The notes under the pieces were generated by a model. It was given only the letters and a program-made list of their open reading frames with translations. It was not told the origin of the DNA and ran no database searches. 64,000 bases of DNA, taken from the NCBI RefSeq assembly GCF_006345805.1, contig NC_042999.1:138074001-138138000 (forward strand). The letters run 5' to 3'. This stretch comes from Octopus sinensis (taxonomy: Eukaryota). Position numbers and translations under genes: made by a program. Of this stretch, positions 10,631-59,871 are shown piece by piece; position 1 is the first letter of the stretch, and the number at the start of each line of letters is the position of its first letter.

Positions 10631-11337
<707 letters not shown>

Positions 11338-15749: not shown

Positions 15750-16251
15750 TAGCTATTATGTTAAACTGTCATTTGTCCAAAGGTTGTTTTTTCAATATTT
15801 TTTTGCTTGCAATAGCCGTTCTTTTGGTCAAAAGATCGTTCTCCAGCTGCTTCAGATGCCAAGATATAAAAAATTGTCCCAAACTGTAGTACATCGGTTT
15901 TGCCTATGGAATAGTGAAACTATCTTATCATTTTCTGAAAAGCAACGTCTTGGATTTACGACACTTTGCATAATAGGAACGATATATAATTATATATATA
16001 TATATATTATAAATATAATATATATTATATATATATATATACTATATATATATATAATATATATATATAATATATATGTATGTATATATATATATATTAT
16101 ATATATATATAACATATACATATATATAGATATATATATATATCTATTATATATATATATATATATAATATATATATATATATAATATATATATATATAT
16201 ATAATATATATAGATATATATATATGTATATATATATGTATATATATAATA

Positions 16252-16792
16252 TATATGAATAAATGAAAGAATGAAGTCGAACGAAGATTTTAACACAAAT
16301 TCCTTTAGCTCAACACAGTTTCGAAGACTGCATCTTAATTCCGAAGGAATAAAGGAGCATATGCCGTTTCTCATCAGGAAAGACAAGGAGCCTCATCGCC
16401 TCAAGACGACAAAAAACTTTTGATGACTGCCTACATGGTGCACTGTGGACACCATGTAGGCAGTCATCAAAAGTATTTGTTCGTCTGAGGATGATAGAGG
16501 CTCCTTGTCTTTCCTGATGAGAAGACGGCATAATGCTCCCTTTATTCCTCGGAAATTAGGGTATGCAGTCTTCGAAACATGTGTTGAGAGTAAAGGAATT
16601 TTGTTTAAAATCTTCGTTCGACTCCATCTTTCATTTATTCATATAAAAAAAACACACACACAAATTTCACACAAGAACACGGGGTTTCTGCCATTGGCAT
16701 GTAGCTTCAACCGTGTTTTCTGACGTGAATTGCTACCCAGGTATCGATTAACCGAATTATCCATACTAGGATAATTCATTCACTACTTAAAC
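16252..16792 (+). mobile_element. Fold-back hammerhead element C inside (TA)n
   Basis: Inverted arms 16252-16440 and 16450-16645 with a 9-nt loop, then a structured tail of about 145 nt. TA tracts lie on both sides. Confidence 0.8.
16509..16590 (+). ncRNA. Minimal type I hammerhead ribozyme with intact core
   Basis: CUUUC CUGAUGA GAAGAC...GUCUUC GAAAC AUGU GUU GAGAG. Stem I CUUUC/GAGAG, stem II 6 bp, stem III ACAUGUGU self-complementary with G-U pairs. Predicted cleavage after 16585. Confidence 0.75.
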
Positions 16793-16833
16793 TATATATA
16801 TATATATATTATATAATATATATATATATTATA

Positions 16834-16881
<48 letters not shown>

Positions 16882-16937
16882 TATATATTGTATATATATA
16901 TAATATATGTATGTTATATATATAATATATATATATA

Positions 16938-16998
<61 letters not shown>

Positions 16999-31549: not shown

Positions 31550-32270
31550 AGGAGAAGAGAGAACTCATGACCCAAGACCCATGACCTTTCCAGTCACTCT
31601 TGGAGTTGGGAGACTGTTGCGGCTGTTGCCCAGCCTGAACATCTATATGTCAATATGTTTACTGGTAAACCTAGGCAGGGAGTGGATATGATAATTTGTC
31701 GGAAAGTTTGCAACAGAGCGAACTCTACCAAAGGCCTCAAAGGTCCAGGTGTTGTTTTTGTTGTATTTGCTGTTTAAGTCCTAAGTCAGAAAACTTATGT
31801 TCATTATAATGGTGACTGTTCCCACATTTTTTGAATTACATATCCAAAACTACATTATTGAATCTCGGGGAGATCAGGCCGTTATTTCAAGCGGTAAAGT
31901 ATTCTATAAGCAATCTATTGTGTTTAAATTTATGATAGCTGATGTAAGAGTTTTATTCAATCTCTCGTTTAAGTACATCACTAAATTTAGTTGTGCGAAT
32001 TAAATAACGGGATAATCTGGAAGTAATATTTATAACTAGCGTTGTATCCATGTTTATACTTCTCTGTCATTGAACCAATGTTACAGAAGCCAGAGACAAG
32101 CCTAACTCTTTCAAGAGTTAAAAGAGCAAGGGATATATCGTTAGATATTCCAGTCGGCGAAGAGGCTTTTGTGGGAGAAAGGTGTAGATGTGCAAGAAAT
32201 AGTAGCAAGAATTAGTATTTCTCACATTAATAAAGGAAAACATTAATAAAAGGAAAACAATTCTAAATCG

Positions 32271-32707
32271 CGTAAGGGGTATTAGCCATCTGAATGTGGC
32301 TAGCCACTGGGGGGGGGGGTTACTGATGCTTTTAGCTCCAGGCGATCAACGTCACCAGAAGGACTTTAGACACTATCTCAGTGCCCTTGTGTTATTTGCA
32401 AAGGGAGGTCATCCTCCCTCGAAGACCCGAGTACTACATACGGACTATAGTTTCAAGGTAATTGCCTCTCGTCAACGCATGGTAAGCACCTTGAAACTAT
32501 AGTCCGTATGTAGTACTCGGATCTTCGAGGGAGGATGACCTCCCTTTGCAAATAACACAAGGGCACTGAGATAGTGTCTAAAGTCCTTCTGGTGACGTTG
32601 ATCGCCTGGGGCTAAAAGCATCAGTAACCCCCCCCCCACCAGTGGATAGCCACATTCAGATGGCTTATACCCCTTACGTTGTCGAGCGGTTACTGTTTAT
32701 ATCTCGT
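32271..32707. mobile_element. Young fold-back hammerhead element D with 12-bp flanking duplication
   Basis: Nearly identical inverted arms 32271-32459 and 32488-32678, 28-nt spacer, 29-nt tail. AATTCTAAATCG lies at 32259-32270 and 32708-32719. Confidence 0.85.
32437..32481 (-). ncRNA. Minimal type I hammerhead motif spanning the hairpin apex
   Basis: Minus strand reads CAUGCG UUGACGA GAGG CAAUUA CCUU GAAAC UAUA GUC CGUAUG. 6-bp stem I, 4-bp stem II, palindromic stem III ACUAUAGU, GUC site; C3 is U. Confidence 0.7.
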
Positions 32708-47058: not shown

Positions 47059-47442
47059 AGTATAAGCTCTTTTCTTGGCTCACAGAATGTTTTGTGATAG
47101 TGATTGGTATATCGTTTGCTCTTTTAGTAGTTCTAGTCTTTGAAGTGCGGTCATGCTGTTGTGACATAACCTTCAGAGGTTTTAGTCAATTATATCGACA
47201 CAAGTACTTATTGACTTTGGAGAAAGATAAAAAATACGGTGTATGTAACCGAAAACAAGGTATTTTTCTCGGCGCCCCATTGATTATGTTATCCCACGCC
47301 CATATATGTGTGAATGTGTGTGTGTGTGCATACACACACATATACACACATACATGCATACACACAGGCATTCAGACACACATACGCACACACACACGTT
47401 TGTATGTATGTATATATATATATATACATACATGCATACTTC

Positions 47443-47473
<31 letters not shown>

Positions 47474-49779
47474 GGAAGTATGCATGTATGTATGTATGTA
47501 TGTATGTATGTATGTATGTATGTATGTATGTATGTATGTGTGTATGTATGTACATATATGTATATATATGAGTATATATGTATTTATGTTAGTGCCTTAG
47601 TCCTGCTAGAGCAAACAGATGATCAAATGCATACCAACCATGACCCACTCATCTGTTTAGACACTGTGAATGTAGCAATATATTATCCAATGTATCCTTT
47701 TCATTTTTAAGAAGGTAGAGTGTGATTTGAGGGAGATTTGGGTTCTATTTCTAGCAGATCGAGCGACTACTAAGAGTATCCTATATGGTAGTAGTGGTGG
47801 TGTTAAATATTCAAATGGGCGAGAATAGATCTCAAGGGACCCCTAATTTATGTTTTTTGATAAATTGGCGGAAATTAACCGAGTGCTTCTACTTTGAAGT
47901 TCTGATTAATAACCGCAGTGTTGGCGTCAAGGCAGTAGAGCTAGTCCATAAGTTTTGTGTAGCGTTACTACAAATGTTAGTAAATGTATAAAAATCGCTA
48001 AGCAGCAGATTAATTTTATTGTCGCAATTACTATCTAGAATTACAAACACATTATCTTTGTCGGTTTTCTTTTATAGAAATAATTTTATTCAAAGAGTTG
48101 TAGGTTCAAAGTGTCAACCTCTTCTTACCCTTTCTATCTCTGTATTTTGTTCTAGTTTACTGCCTAATAAAGGTTTCCTACGACATATACATACAACTCC
48201 CAAAACTTATGGCACTTGAAGTCAGTGAATTGACTAGTTAAGCAGTTTTATACTGACAGTAAATGTACTTTACCCTCGATTCAACAAAGGAAGCCAAGCA
48301 AGTGGCCTAAGTTACCGCCTTAGACACCATGACTTCTAATCCCTAATACAACTTAATCTCATAACCCAAAACTTTCTGCGGCAGCATGCTTAGATTATGG
48401 AGAGAGATTATAGCTGAAACCCAACCCCCAGAAAAACTTACCTCTACCAAAAGGGTGGCATTTATCTACCACTTCAGTTCCGTTATGACTATCACCCGAA
48501 AGATGAAATTTACCTTAGTGTATCGCACATTCTACAAGTTCTTCAACTGCAACCAGCTCTTTTTCATTTCTTATTGAGATATATCTACCAACTTTAGAGA
48601 ATCCTACCACCTTTCACTTCTCTGCCGTAATGCCTCTGTAAGCAGAGTTCCTTGAAGAAAGCTTCCTTATTTTGCAGTAACTCCCTTTGAATTCAATTCC
48701 ACATTGCAAAGGCTAAACCCAAAATTATCCCCAAACGTTTCTTCTTCACTCAGCCAATGTCAACACGATACAAATATAACGTCGGGTGTGGAAGCAACCG
48801 GAGTTTTGAATCAAAAGTCCATCGTCCCTTTTCATTGTTCTCTCTGTTACCCTTAATGTTGTGTTGAAGACCTATCATATATTCTTAAATATTTTCTCTC
48901 TAGATAGGTTTATTGAATAAGTGGGTGAAAAGAAATTAGAATACCAAACTAAAACCATATGCAGGTAATAGCTACGCTGCTACAGTGGGTATATAACATA
49001 GTAGTTAAAAACTTTAGCTATTTTAATTAAAATAAGAATTTGAAAACAATTCCCTTAAACATTCACGTTAAGCATACAAAATAGAATAAATTTTAGACTT
49101 TAAGATTAAGAAGCGCACCGCATTTATGAACAAAGGGTTTAATAAAAGCTACTGCATTAACATATACTTATTACACAACACATATGTCCGACAAATAGGA
49201 GATAACTGCCACTAAGTTTACTTAGAAGCGCGAGAGAACTTCTGCGTAATCGCTCGATCTGGAAAAAAGATGAGATGAGATGGTAATGGCCTGATTAAAT
49301 AACGACGACAACGACAGTAACAACACGAAAGTGTTACATATACTAAACAAATTAATTAGTAAAGAATAAACTTACAAACTTGTAAATCAAACCATATAGG
49401 AATTTACCACCTTCAAGAAAACAAAAACAGACAATTGATAGCTACTGACGTCAGACTGGCCAGTATAAAATCGATAGAATAATTGTGTTGAAATTACTCG
49501 CACTGATCAAATTTAGATTTAGCTGTATATTTATTAAGATTCAAAACTAAGTTATACTCTTTTAAGTAACAGCAATGAAAACAAATAACCACTAAGTATA
49601 TGCTCGATTCACCAACGCAAGCACAACCCTCTATAAAGCAAAGATTGGATCACAAAAGCTTGTGTTCTTCATAGCCAGAAAGTACTTCAAGCTTCATACA
49701 ATTACTAACCCTCTACAAAGTTCAGGTAGCTACTATAATAGCTTATTGCTCCCATATTTAGAACAATGCTGCTGCTAAA

Positions 49780-59257: not shown

Positions 59258-59871
59258 AAGGAAGTATAATATTATTACTCATTTCATTCATTCATTCATT
59301 CATTGAATTCTGGTGATTCAGTCAGTACCAACAGCTATTAGTGTCACTAGTAGGGTGCAAGCGCAATAGGCGTGGTATGTGAAGCGGGGTGGTGGAAAGA
59401 GTATGTTGAATATAAGTAATATTAGTTAATGACATTTTTTTGGATATGACATAATTATTTCTAATTCACATTTAGATTTTCTCAGTGTGAAATACGTTAA
59501 CACTAATTTAATAAGATAGTGTTTAAAGAAAAAGAAAAAAAACTGGATGGTCAAGGCTCGAATGTCATTGATCATCAGTCTGCTCCATCAGAGACGACTC
59601 GGACTGAAGAAGGAGGAGGAGGAGGAGGAGGATGAGGAGAACAGCAACAACAGTGCCGGATGTTTCACACAGAAGCCTGAAGCGTGCTCAAGAATCCTTT
59701 GAAGGAAGGTCCTGTTCAATCAACATACTCTTTCCACCATCCCGCTTCACAAACCACGCCTATTGCGCTTGCACCCTACTAGTGACACTAATAGCAGTTG
59801 GTACTGACTGAATCACCAGAATTCAATGAATGAATGAATGAATGAAATGAGTAATAATATTATATTTCCTT
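59258..59871. repeat. 152-bp inverted repeat with 310-bp spacer
   Basis: Arms 59258-59409 and 59720-59871 are nearly identical and include an internal (TGAA)n. Confidence 0.93.

What the first reader, a model, noticed from the sequence alone, without database searches (positions are those of the whole stretch)
16252..16792. Element C: 190-bp hairpin with an intact hammerhead on one arm and its mirror on the other
Seen: arms are separated by only 9 nt. The plus arm has a canonical CUGAUGA/GAAAC core with a long stem II insertion (16509-16590), and the left arm encodes the same motif on the minus strand. Inference: a read-through transcript from either strand would contain a ribozyme and its antisense, so hairpin formation could switch cleavage off or produce long dsRNA. 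Caveat: the arms differ mostly by single-base indels, which could be sequencing noise in a hairpin.
Basis: partly seen in the sequence, partly recalled or inferred. Interest (0 to 1): 0.75.

Follow-up and report, generated by a model that had tools for sequence, protein, structure and literature searches.

The report
Penelope retroelement fold-back insertion scar
The hairpin is a broken, head-to-head double copy of the tail end of a very abundant Penelope-like jumping gene that sits in a TA repeat and carries that family's hammerhead-ribozyme motif (complete on one arm and predicted to fold, decayed on the other), so it is an already described kind of insertion debris and probably not a new RNA switch.

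Summary
Window 16252-16440 and 16450-16644 are inverted arms 9 nt apart. As RNA they fold at -269.6 kcal/mol (z = -30.7).

The + arm carries every conserved hammerhead position in a type-I layout. Predicted cleavage is between U16585 and G16586. The minus-strand copy keeps the core boxes but has lost helix II, helix III and helix I pairings.

The hairpin is not a free-standing device. The arm is the 3'-terminal (pseudo-LTR) region of a retroelement family with thousands of copies in this 2.7-Gb genome. [quoted passage not shown]

The 147-nt tail (16645-16791) is the element's 5'UTR, so arm plus tail is a partial-tandem junction. Copies are 5'-truncated and lie in (TA)n. They are often paired head to head, with junctions that differ from copy to copy, and only one copy of a pair carries the tail. 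All of this is published Penelope-like-element anatomy.

Compensatory changes across subfamilies support the ribozyme fold. No Rfam hammerhead model detects it.

A regulatory role for the hairpin has no support. No RNA data could be obtained, so expression was not tested. This is an ordinary finding: a new member of a known kind.

The parts
15982..16256 (.). (TA)n microsatellite, left flank and target of the insertion
   Evidence: Tandem Repeats Finder: period 2, 143 copies. Family copies elsewhere are likewise flanked by (TA)n.
16252..16440 (-). Left arm: an inverted, 5'-truncated copy of the retroelement's 3'-terminal (pLTR) region. It ends at the arm/tail boundary and lacks the tail.
   Evidence: Reverse complement of the right arm. 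It corresponds to unit positions about u470-669.
16297..16393 (-). Degenerate hammerhead copy on the minus strand. The core boxes are kept. There is a 1-nt deletion in helix II (GAAGAC>GAAAC) and a 1-nt deletion in helix III (ACAUGUGU>ACUGUGU). The helix I 3' strand reads GAGCU instead of GAGAG.
   Evidence: Alignments. The descriptor finds only helix II = 3 bp and helix I = 3 bp. The MFE of -22.3 kcal/mol (z -0.95) is not the hammerhead fold. Family model score is 67.2 bits against 105.7 for the + arm.
16441..16449 (.). Junction or loop between the two copies (CACTGTGGA)
   Evidence: Sequence. Junction sequences differ in every one of the 22 head-to-head or partial copies printed.
16450..16644 (+). 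Right arm: the 3'-terminal (pLTR) region of the retroelement in sense orientation
   Evidence: 89% identical to the reference built from full-length copies. In longer copies it continues upstream into the 3'UTR and the ORF.
16498..16601 (+). Type-I hammerhead motif. Helix I 5' strand 16498-16513; C3-A9 CUGAUGA 16514-16520; helix II hairpin 16521-16573 (G10.1 16521, C11.1 16573); G12A13A14 16574-16576; helix III ACAUGUGU 16577-16584; U17 16585; predicted cleavage 16585|16586; helix I 3' strand 16586-16601.
   Evidence: Sequence; descriptor hit with helix II 6 bp and helix I 5 bp; MFE and centroid contain helices I and II; covariation in the family. There is no Rfam hammerhead hit. Cleavage is predicted, not shown.
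16645..16791 (+). Tail: the first part of the element's 5'UTR, copied because reverse transcription would start inside the next unit. It contains an AC-rich stretch and a 9-bp stem-loop (GAATTATCC/GGATAATTC) near its end.
   Evidence: In L117 (reverse strand, 2515-2648) the same sequence lies about 55 nt upstream of the ORF's ATG. 21 of 43 listed genome matches span the tail plus the ORF start. Only one copy of a head-to-head pair carries it. The reverse-transcription start is inferred from PMC11167929.
16793..16937 (.). (TA)n microsatellite, right flank, followed by (TG)n at 16939-16995
   Evidence: Tandem Repeats Finder

Best explanation
Element C is a 5'-truncated, head-to-head pair of copies of the 3'-terminal (pseudo-LTR) region of a high-copy Penelope-like retroelement lying in a (TA)n microsatellite, and its hairpin shape was most likely produced by the element's own integration mechanism rather than selected for an RNA function.

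Shown here:
- The tail is the element's 5'UTR, so arm plus tail is a partial-tandem (pLTR) junction.
- Copies are 5'-truncated at many points and lie in (TA)n.
- They are often preceded by an inverted copy, with a junction that differs from copy to copy.
- In a pair, one copy ends at the tail end and the other at the arm end.
- The arm carries a type-I hammerhead motif with all core positions. Helix I is long and interrupted, helix II is a 53-nt hairpin, and helix III is an 8-nt self-complementary stretch. Compensatory changes between subfamilies support the fold.

Inferred from published work on other Penelope-like elements:
- The element's protein would nick both strands of AT-rich DNA.
- It would prime reverse transcription at two internal RNA sites just downstream of the ribozyme. 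This gives the two classes of 3' end, and the stretch between them is the tail.
- Extension from both strands would leave two copies head to head.

The hammerhead would act in processing more-than-unit-length element RNA. Helix III does not fold on its own but is self-complementary, so the ribozyme probably works as a dimer or with protein help.

In this particular copy the motif is a passenger. The + arm copy looks complete, the minus copy is decayed, and any transcript spanning both arms would most likely fold into the hairpin and bury it.
For: Hairpin and motif.

Family size: 3195 first-look candidates for the 541-nt query, of which 40 were scored. There are 16640 candidates for the endonuclease-like domain, 150 scored. 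A 26-nt piece of the ribozyme has 541 + 504 exact matches, against 0 + 0 for the reversed control.

Continuity into a coding element: searches give ORFs of 616-670 aa. The AlphaFold model of P0002 (pLDDT 65) matches retron, DRT, telomerase, group II intron and HIV reverse transcriptases, with Foldseek E from 3.2e-07 and 138 chains at E <= 0.001.

Clade markers: 124 homologues were found. Two of them, P0003 and P0102, carry the CxCX5C linker, and all four aligned sequences carry CxxC...N...CxH. DKT is present. ESM Atlas look-alike clusters carry HTH_animal, RVT_1 and GIY-YIG (a lead only).

Tail is the 5'UTR. In 15 of 20 loci, arm sequence runs in the + direction into the tail and then the ORF.

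Head-to-head pairs: of 27 loci with a pair, 25 have one copy ending at u808-812 and the other at u662-672. All 22 junctions printed differ. Among the first 100 listed 26-mer matches there are 10 close -/+ pairs, 106-228 bp apart.

(TA)n flanks.

Ribozyme structure, on 64 distinct family sequences: 93.1% of cells are paired, against 35-49% when partners are slid. There are 19 double-change cells in 6 pairs, reached by 0 of 500 shuffles. Examples are A-U>G.U>G-C in helix II and G-C>A-U in helix I. The helix III variants ACAUGUGU, ACAUAUGU and ACAUGU are all self-complementary. At least six unrelated hammerhead-like motifs of the same architecture lie in the fetched loci.

Literature (sections or passages read):
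- PMC8557442: inverted 5'-truncated copy, one-sided tail, (TA)n targets, hammerheads in pLTRs, Hydra-clade motifs.
- PMC4209133: Penelope-element hammerheads, large helix II, palindromic helix III, pairs of motifs 100-700 bp apart on opposite strands.
- PMC11167929: both strands cleaved and extended, two internal start sites that define the tail, AT-rich targets.
Against: No Rfam hammerhead model matches the window copy, or four other family loci, even at E <= 10.

Pfam and NCBIfam give no hit to the ORF or its C-terminal domain. Sequence profiles find nothing in the PDB. The GIY-YIG assignment therefore rests on motifs, homologues and a language-model look-alike. The endonuclease fold was not checked on its own.

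The 30 loci fetched with Pfam GIY-YIG belong to other families and share no arm sequence.

The tail is 143-147 nt, not the 30-40 nt described for other Penelope-like elements.

Within the family the core is no better conserved than the rest of the arm. The 64 sequences used for covariation were preselected by a descriptor that demands the core and short stems. The sequences are also related, so the shuffle control overstates significance.

Self-cleavage, transcription and the integration steps were not observed for this family.
Confidence: 0.88

Rival explanations
1. This is a selected RNA device. The hairpin pairs the ribozyme with its antisense to switch cleavage off, or serves as a hairpin-RNA locus that yields long dsRNA or small RNAs.
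For: The hairpin is far more stable than the ribozyme fold (-269.6 against -31.5 kcal/mol). A read-through transcript would therefore be double-stranded.
Against: Fold-backs of this kind recur across the genome with different junctions, so the shape is a by-product of insertion. Both arms carry private small deletions, and the left motif is decayed. No gene or long ORF adjoins the element.
Confidence: 0.05
2. This is an assembly or sequencing fold-back artefact. Only one arm exists in the real genome.
For: The arms differ by many 1-3-nt indels, which is typical of noisy long reads. No independent reads could be laid on the locus.
Against: The palindrome ends exactly at the arm ends, and the 147-nt tail is not mirrored. 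A chimeric fold-back read would mirror everything. At least 25 other loci show the same asymmetric architecture. The architecture is published for this class (PMC8557442).
Confidence: 0.03
3. This is a fold-back or MITE-type DNA transposon with long terminal inverted repeats, in which CUGAUGA...GAAAC occurs by chance.
For: There are long inverted arms, a high copy number and TA-rich flanks.
Against: The arm is the 3' end of a coding element with a reverse-transcriptase fold, and its 5' truncation points vary. The inverted copies are unequal, with the tail on one side only. A motif of this quality occurred 0 times in 300 simulated windows. It shows compensatory changes.
Confidence: 0.02
4. This is a non-autonomous animal retrozyme: a short tandem unit flanked by hammerheads and expressed as a small circular RNA.
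For: A type-I hammerhead with a 2-bp/tetraloop-like helix III resembles invertebrate retrozyme ribozymes (PMC7229834). A 2026 preprint, of which only the abstract was read, derives retrozymes from pLTRs of Penelope-like elements.
Against: There is no tandem array here; only microsatellites repeat. The two motifs lie on opposite strands. The family has its own long ORF.
Confidence: 0.04

Closest known systems
Insertion units of endonuclease-positive Penelope-like elements (pLTR, adjacent inverted 5'-truncated copy, one-sided tail); Craig, Yushenova, Rodriguez, Arkhipova 2021, PMC8557442; Frangieh et al. 2024, PMC11167929
   Same: Partial-tandem pLTR upstream of the ORF; inverted 5'-truncated copy abutting the 5' end; tail on one side only; (TA)n target; hammerhead near the 3' end, just upstream of the two classes of 3' end.
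   Different: The tail is about 145 nt rather than 30-40 nt. The integration biochemistry was shown for a lizard Poseidon element, not for this family.
Hydra clade of C-terminal EN+ Penelope-like elements (PMC8557442, section 11)
   Same: DKT instead of DKG. No CCHH cysteine pair between GIY and YIG. CxxC...E...N...CxH in the endonuclease: the C, N and H positions are invariant in the four aligned sequences, while the E position is K in P0002. Insertion into (TA)n; hammerhead present. Homologues P0003 and P0102 have the CxCX5C linker. Molluscs are among the published hosts.
   Different: In this family the linker cysteines are replaced by a long Asn-rich low-complexity stretch. The N-terminal motif reads RWL, not RWK. 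The element is about 3.4 kb, against the published under 3 kb. No phylogeny was made.
Hammerheads of metazoan Penelope-like elements and canonical metazoan type-I hammerheads (Cervera and De la Pena 2014, PMC4209133; 2020, PMC7229834)
   Same: Type-I topology; G10.1-C11.1; enlarged helix II; short palindromic helix III suited to dimer formation; location in the pLTR; pairs of motifs on opposite strands 100-700 bp apart were already reported.
   Different: Helix II is a 53-nt hairpin, far longer than the 7-8 bp described. Helix I is 5 + 9 bp with a 2x2 internal loop. There is no unpaired base between A9 and G10.1. Rfam models miss it.
Newt/axolotl satellite and retrozyme hammerheads acting as dimers (PMC7229834)
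   Same: A weak helix III that is self-complementary, so two motifs could form an extended helix III.
   Different: Those sit in head-to-tail tandem repeats and give circular RNAs. Here the copies are dispersed or head to head.

Membership tests
Hammerhead ribozyme, type I | Conserved core C3 U4 G5 A6 N7 G8 A9, G12 A13 A14, A15.1-U16.1, H17 | tested here: met
   The + arm has CUGAUGA at 16514-16520, GAA at 16574-16576, A16577...U16584 and U16585. In the family, N17 is C in 35 and U in 30 of 65 arms.
Hammerhead ribozyme, type I | Three helices around the core, helix I open-ended, G10.1-C11.1 closing helix II | tested here: met
   Helices I and II appear in the MFE and centroid of the isolated motif. 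The 10.1-11.1 pair is G-C in 63 of 64 sequences. Helix III is only 2 bp as a hairpin, but is self-complementary over 8 nt.
Hammerhead ribozyme, type I | Compensatory base changes that keep the helices | tested here: met
   19 double-change cells in 6 pairs, reached by 0 of 500 shuffles; 93.1% paired against 35-49% when slid. Caveats: the sequences were preselected by my descriptor and are related.
Hammerhead ribozyme, type I | Match to a curated Rfam hammerhead covariance model | tested here: not met
   No hammerhead family at gathering score in the window, nor at E <= 10 in 16150-16850 or in four family loci.
Hammerhead ribozyme, type I | Site-specific self-cleavage | not testable with these tools
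   This needs in vitro transcription or end-mapping. Published Penelope-element hammerheads cleave poorly alone (PMC4209133) or need the element's protein (PMC11167929).
Penelope-like element (EN+) | Reverse transcriptase domain | tested here: met
   The model of P0002 matches reverse transcriptases including telomerase, from E 3.2e-07, with 138 chains at E <= 0.001. Pfam RVT_1 hits only homologues and only weakly (P0119: 26.7 bits, below the 29.6 cut-off). Telomerase-like placement by phylogeny was not tested.
Penelope-like element (EN+) | GIY-YIG endonuclease in the same ORF | tested here: inconclusive
   The motif IY-x10-YIG-xT-x3-L-x-R-x3-H is followed by a conserved CxxC...N...CxH. Look-alike clusters carry PF01541. 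However, Pfam gives no hit at E <= 1, there is no PDB profile hit, and the fold of this domain was not searched separately.
Penelope-like element (EN+) | Pseudo-LTR from partial tandem arrangement | tested here: met
   In 15 of 20 loci holding the ORF start, arm sequence runs in the sense direction into the tail and the ORF. 8 of those 20 include the whole hammerhead.
Penelope-like element (EN+) | Inverted 5'-truncated copy at the 5' end, and a tail at one end only | tested here: met
   Of 27 head-to-head loci, 25 have one tailed and one untailed copy. Junctions all differ. The first 30 loci were found with the hairpin itself as query, which biases them. The pattern search is unbiased and shows 10 close -/+ pairs among the first 100 listed matches.
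Penelope-like element (EN+) | AT-rich or microsatellite target | tested here: met
   (TA)n lies on both sides in the window and at nearly all copy ends printed.
Hydra clade of Penelope-like elements | DKT motif, no CCHH, CxxC/CxH around E and N, CxCX5C linker, (TA)n target, hammerhead | tested here: inconclusive
   DKT, absence of CCHH, CxxC/CxH, (TA)n and the hammerhead are met. The linker cysteines are absent in this family but present in its homologues. RWK reads RWL. No tree with reference clades was made.
Animal non-LTR retrozyme | Head-to-tail tandem repeats of 150-450 bp, each with a type-I hammerhead | tested here: not met
   No tandem unit at the locus. The motifs lie on opposite strands.
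Fold-back / MITE DNA transposon | Symmetric terminal inverted repeats, no relation to a reverse-transcribed element | tested here: not met
   The ends are asymmetric, with the tail on one side, and the arm is the 3' end of a coding element with a reverse-transcriptase fold.

The most novel reading that the evidence does not exclude
The family's ribozyme is an undescribed long-helix-II, obligate-dimer hammerhead variant that Rfam cannot see. It belongs to a Hydra-type Penelope-like element that has expanded to more than ten thousand copies in one animal genome. Its preferred fold-back point, 50-115 nt upstream of the ribozyme, seeds the genome with hundreds to thousands of 300-400-nt hairpins. 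These act as a standing source of double-stranded RNA that silences or edits the family.
Probability: 0.12. Interest if true: 0.5.

Novelty: new member of a known kind. Interest (0 to 1): 0.2.

Why it matters
The finding mainly serves as a clean worked example. A hairpin with a ribozyme on both strands is the normal footprint of Penelope-like element integration, not a new regulatory RNA.

Three points have modest value:
- It documents a hammerhead variant that curated models miss. Helix II is a 53-nt hairpin, helix III is an 8-nt self-complementary stretch, and helix I is long.
- It shows a Hydra-like Penelope family at very high copy number, with an unusually long (about 145 nt) tail.
- It shows that fold-back junctions cluster shortly upstream of the ribozyme. 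That clustering bears on how these elements finish integration.

Tried and rejected
Rfam: the only hit at gathering score is a doubtful mir-1 match elsewhere in the window. No hammerhead family appears at E <= 10 on the locus or on L007, L034, L040 and L013.

Sequencing runs: my single search used 16100-16950, which includes the (TA)n flanks. The 24 runs listed share only about 0.2-0.3 of the words, and no RNA holder is listed. Laying X1, X5, X6 and X15 on 16252-16792 placed only two 31-nt contigs of X5, at 16645-16674. There is therefore no independent read support and no expression data. This is my error in choosing the query, not a biological result.

Pfam GIY-YIG search of the genome: the 30 loci fetched are other families. 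Only microsatellite matches to the unit were found, and no hammerhead by my strict first scan.

Pfam and NCBIfam on the ORFs gave nothing. PDB sequence profiles of the ORF and of the endonuclease part gave nothing relevant.

A pairwise comparison with a Pfam-positive endonuclease failed on a stop codon. An HMM of 26 family endonuclease sequences against the two usable Pfam-positive ones aligned only the YIG...R...H stretch, at 7.3 and 2.7 bits. That is not significant evidence.

An apparent fold-back hot spot seen in the first 30 loci was set aside, because the query was the hairpin itself. The later pattern search supports a preference but rests on only the first 100 listed matches.

The idea that the roughly 790-nt stretch (X + arm + tail) is a SINE-like unit with its own 5' end was dropped. 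The flank upstream of u23 proved conserved and coding.

The covariance model could not be run on the whole genome. Earlier notes on this genome do not exist.
Full report
**1. The observation**

The sequence shows two inverted arms, 16252-16440 and 16450-16644, separated by the 9 nt CACTGTGGA. Folded as RNA, 16245-16650 gives one long hairpin of -269.6 kcal/mol. One hundred dinucleotide shuffles average -89.07 (sd 5.88), so z is -30.7 and none folds as well. A BLAST of the element against the window finds only itself and its own reverse complement, at 86.98% over 407 columns.

The element is bounded by (TA)n on both sides: 15982-16256 and 16793-16937, followed by (TG)n.

**2. The hammerhead**

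On the + strand the motif reads as a type-I hammerhead:
- helix I 5' strand, 16498-16513;
- CUGAUGA, 16514-16520;
- helix II, from G16521 to C16573, with six Watson-Crick pairs (GAAGAC/GUCUUC) closing a 53-nt hairpin;
- GAA, 16574-16576;
- ACAUGUGU, 16577-16584, giving A15.1-U16.1 and C15.2-G16.2;
- U17, 16585;
- helix I 3' strand, 16586-16601. This forms 5 pairs, a 2x2 internal loop, and then up to 9 more pairs.

I wrote a descriptor that requires CUGANGA, helix II of at least 3 bp, GAAA, the 15.2-16.2 pair, U16.1, H17 and helix I of at least 3 bp. It finds exactly two hits in the 64-kb window, the two arms. In 300 Markov-1 simulated windows it found 14 lenient hits, and none with helix II >= 6 and helix I >= 5 as in the + arm.

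The isolated + motif folds at -31.5 kcal/mol, with helices I and II in both the MFE and the centroid structure.

The minus-strand copy keeps both boxes but has lost one base in helix II and one in helix III, and two helix I pairs. It does not adopt the hammerhead fold (-22.3 kcal/mol, z -0.95). It scores 67.2 bits against 105.7 for the + arm with a family model. That model was built from an alignment that includes both arms.

No Rfam hammerhead model matches at gathering score, or at E <= 10 on the locus or on four other family loci. The long helix II and the minimal helix III probably explain this. That explanation is an inference.

**3. What the arm belongs to**

The window's genome (2.72 Gb) holds the element in very many copies. 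There are 3195 first-look candidates, of which 40 were scored.

Copies that seemed to start at the right arm have a conserved upstream flank. Walking upstream leads through a 3'UTR of about 440 nt, containing a (CA)n run, into an open reading frame. Four longer copies carry ORFs of 616-670 aa.

By eye the ORFs show reverse-transcriptase motifs (FIQFDISNFY, LYRDDCLL, FLDITL). These are followed by a long Asn-rich linker and a C-terminal domain that reads NSIYQC...FYIGxTTSxLSxRISNHYSTF...CGxC...N...CKH.

Pfam and NCBIfam give no hit, and PDB sequence profiles give none. Other evidence does support the assignment:
- An AlphaFold model of the 657-aa ORF (mean pLDDT 65, linkers disordered) matches retron, DRT, telomerase, group II intron and HIV reverse transcriptases, from E 3.2e-07. 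In all, 138 chains match at E <= 0.001.
- A database search finds 124 homologues. Two of them that cover the C-terminus carry the CxCX5C linker, and all four aligned sequences share the CxxC...N...CxH motif, with E at the conserved acidic position in three of them and K in P0002.
- ESM Atlas look-alike clusters carry HTH_animal, RVT_1 and GIY-YIG, with Mollusca the commonest recorded phylum (a lead only).

The motif DKT is present, and the CCHH cysteine pair is absent. Together with (TA)n targeting and the hammerhead, these are the published marks of the Hydra clade of Penelope-like elements (PMC8557442, section 11, read). The linker cysteines are missing in this family, and I made no tree, so I call it Hydra-like.

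The C-terminal domain alone has 16640 first-look candidates in the genome, of which 150 were scored.

**4. The tail**

The 147 nt after the right arm recur about 55 nt upstream of the ATG of a near-full-length copy (L117). 21 of 43 listed matches to a 436-nt probe (tail plus ORF start) span essentially all of it.

In 15 of the 20 loci fetched, arm sequence runs in the sense direction into the tail and on into the ORF. Eight of those 20 contain the whole hammerhead. So arm plus tail is the junction of a partial tandem, which is a pseudo-LTR, and the hammerhead lies about 270 nt upstream of the start codon.

Copies end either at the arm end (u662-672 in my unit numbering) or at the tail end (u808-812). 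Of 27 loci with a head-to-head pair, 25 have one copy of each kind. In L015 the tail is cut at u799, and L036 is an exception. The first 30 loci were retrieved with the hairpin itself as query, and so are biased towards this layout.

**5. The hairpin is a recurrent by-product**

In all 22 head-to-head or partial copies printed, the central junction is different. They are therefore independent events, not copies of one hairpin.

An unbiased check used a 26-nt piece of the ribozyme. It has 541 forward and 504 reverse exact matches in the genome, and the reversed control has 0 and 0. Among the first 100 listed there are 10 close pairs. All are minus-then-plus, 106-228 bp apart, and no wider pairs occur. 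The corresponding spacing in the window is about 159 bp.

This suggests that fold-back points cluster 50-115 nt upstream of the ribozyme. I cannot explain the clustering.

**6. Comparison with the literature**

*PMC8557442* (passages and section 11 read) describes Penelope-like insertions as follows. They are 5'-truncated and form partial tandems that make pseudo-LTRs. They often have an inverted 5'-truncated copy at the 5' end and a 30-40-bp tail at one end only. Hammerheads lie in the pLTRs, and (TA)n is a preferred target.

*PMC4209133* (parts 1-2 read) reports hammerheads in the flanking repeats of these elements. They have an enlarged helix II, G10.1-C11.1 and a palindromic helix III suited to dimers. 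Pairs of motifs 100-700 bp apart on opposite strands are noted, and activity in vitro is low.

*PMC11167929* (main text read) studied a lizard element. Its protein cleaves and extends both DNA strands at AT-rich sites, and it starts reverse transcription at two internal RNA sites whose spacing is the tail. The ribozyme needs the protein and is dispensable for insertion in vitro.

*PMC7229834* (passages read) notes that invertebrate type-I hammerheads have a 2-bp helix III with a tetraloop.

Every anatomical feature of Element C fits these descriptions. The differences are a longer tail (about 145 nt) and a much longer helix II.

**7. Support for the ribozyme fold from variation**

Across 65 arms the whole arm is about equally conserved, so conservation alone is uninformative.

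My descriptor returned 72 distinct hits over loci L001-L117. I left out seven unrelated motifs and L029, which has an 8-nt duplication, and aligned the other 64.

With the structure given by me, 93.1% of cells pair, against 35-49% when partners are slid by 1-3 columns. There are 19 double-change cells in 6 pairs, and none of 500 shuffles reaches that number. Examples:
- A-U (45 sequences) > G.U (14) > G-C (4) in helix II;
- C-G (32) > U-A (5) in helix I;
- U-A (52) > C-G (7) in distal helix II.

Two caveats apply. The core and the first stem pairs are fixed by the descriptor. The sequences are also related, so the shuffle control overstates significance.

The helix III variants ACAUGUGU, ACAUAUGU and ACAUGU are all self-complementary. 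None forms a hairpin alone, but their self-duplexes are -4.6 to -7.0 kcal/mol. Only 36 of 256 AC-NNNN-GU words would be self-complementary by chance.

At least six of the unrelated hammerhead-like motifs in the fetched loci share the layout and have self-complementary helix III words: ACGAUCGU, ACGAUUGU, ACAUAUGU and ACUCGAGU.

**8. Mechanism**

*Shown:* the anatomy described above.

*Inferred from the papers:* more-than-unit RNA from a pLTR promoter is bound by the element's protein. Both strands of a (TA)n site are nicked. Reverse transcription starts at either of two sites 60 and 205 nt downstream of the ribozyme's cleavage site. The two cDNAs run back past the ribozyme and are joined head to head after early termination. 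The result is a dead, hairpin-shaped stub.

The ribozyme itself would serve RNA processing of the active element, probably as a dimer or with protein. In this stub it has no evident role.

*Not tested:* cleavage, transcription, small RNAs, and the reality of the many small indels in this copy. My one search for sequencing runs was spoilt because I included the microsatellite flanks in the query.

**9. Verdict**

The thing is an ordinary fold-back insertion scar of a Penelope-like element: a new member of a known kind. Earlier notes of this scan on other genomes reach the same reading for similar hairpins. I did not rely on them.

Noticed in passing
window 10737-11290: A second fold-back of the same general kind lies in (TA)n. 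It consists of an arm at 10739-10883 (+), a (TA)n spacer, an inverted arm at 10913-11059, a third partial arm, and a tail-like end. CUGAAGAG and GAAAC boxes are present, and helix III would read ACACGUGU. The family model gives weak hits (23-28 bits). The stretch 11197-11253 is 80% identical to Element C's tail. This is probably another Penelope-like family.
   Followed up: partly
window 32270-32680: A near-perfect palindrome: core arms 32310-32466 and 32481-32637 are 97% complementary with 14 nt between them, and the pairing extends outwards. It is flanked by G and C homopolymer runs. No hammerhead boxes were seen. Its nature was not determined.
   Followed up: no
window 59258-59409 / 59720-59871: Inverted repeat of 152 nt, 97% complementary, with 310 nt between the arms. 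Not examined.
   Followed up: no
window 47425-47492 (-): The only Rfam hit at gathering score is mir-1, at 46.0 bits against a threshold of 45.6. It lies inside AT/AC-rich low-complexity sequence (GC 0.22) and has mispaired positions. It looks doubtful as a real microRNA gene.
   Followed up: no
L099:2-111 (+), L018:2973-3083 (-), L059:870-959 (-), L027:1271-1337 (+), L081:4793-4902 (+), L054:2605-2694 (+): Hammerhead-like motifs unrelated in sequence to Element C's, but with the same layout and self-complementary 8-nt helix III words (ACGAUCGU, ACGAUUGU, ACAUAUGU, ACUCGAGU). The genome seems to hold several hammerhead-bearing element families. A seventh hit, L015:3193-3263 (-), is uncertain.
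   Followed up: partly
G000, first 100 matches: Head-to-head pairs of the ribozyme 26-mer are always minus-then-plus and 106-228 bp apart. The fold-back point therefore seems to cluster 50-115 nt upstream of the ribozyme. No explanation was found.
   Followed up: partly
P0001/P0002 (L116:2730-4739, L115:2941-4911): The ORF has two long disordered, Asn/Ser-rich low-complexity stretches (residues 278-345 and 417-527 of P0002). The second lies just before the endonuclease-like domain, at the place where homologues carry a cysteine linker.
   Followed up: partly
L081:8781-9122: One family copy carries a roughly 340-bp insertion relative to others, and L082 has a local duplication at the same place.
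   Followed up: no
G000: Pfam GIY-YIG finds 5029 first-look candidates, with open frames up to 883 aa, in families unrelated at the DNA level to Element C's. Several distinct Penelope-like families therefore coexist.
   Followed up: partly
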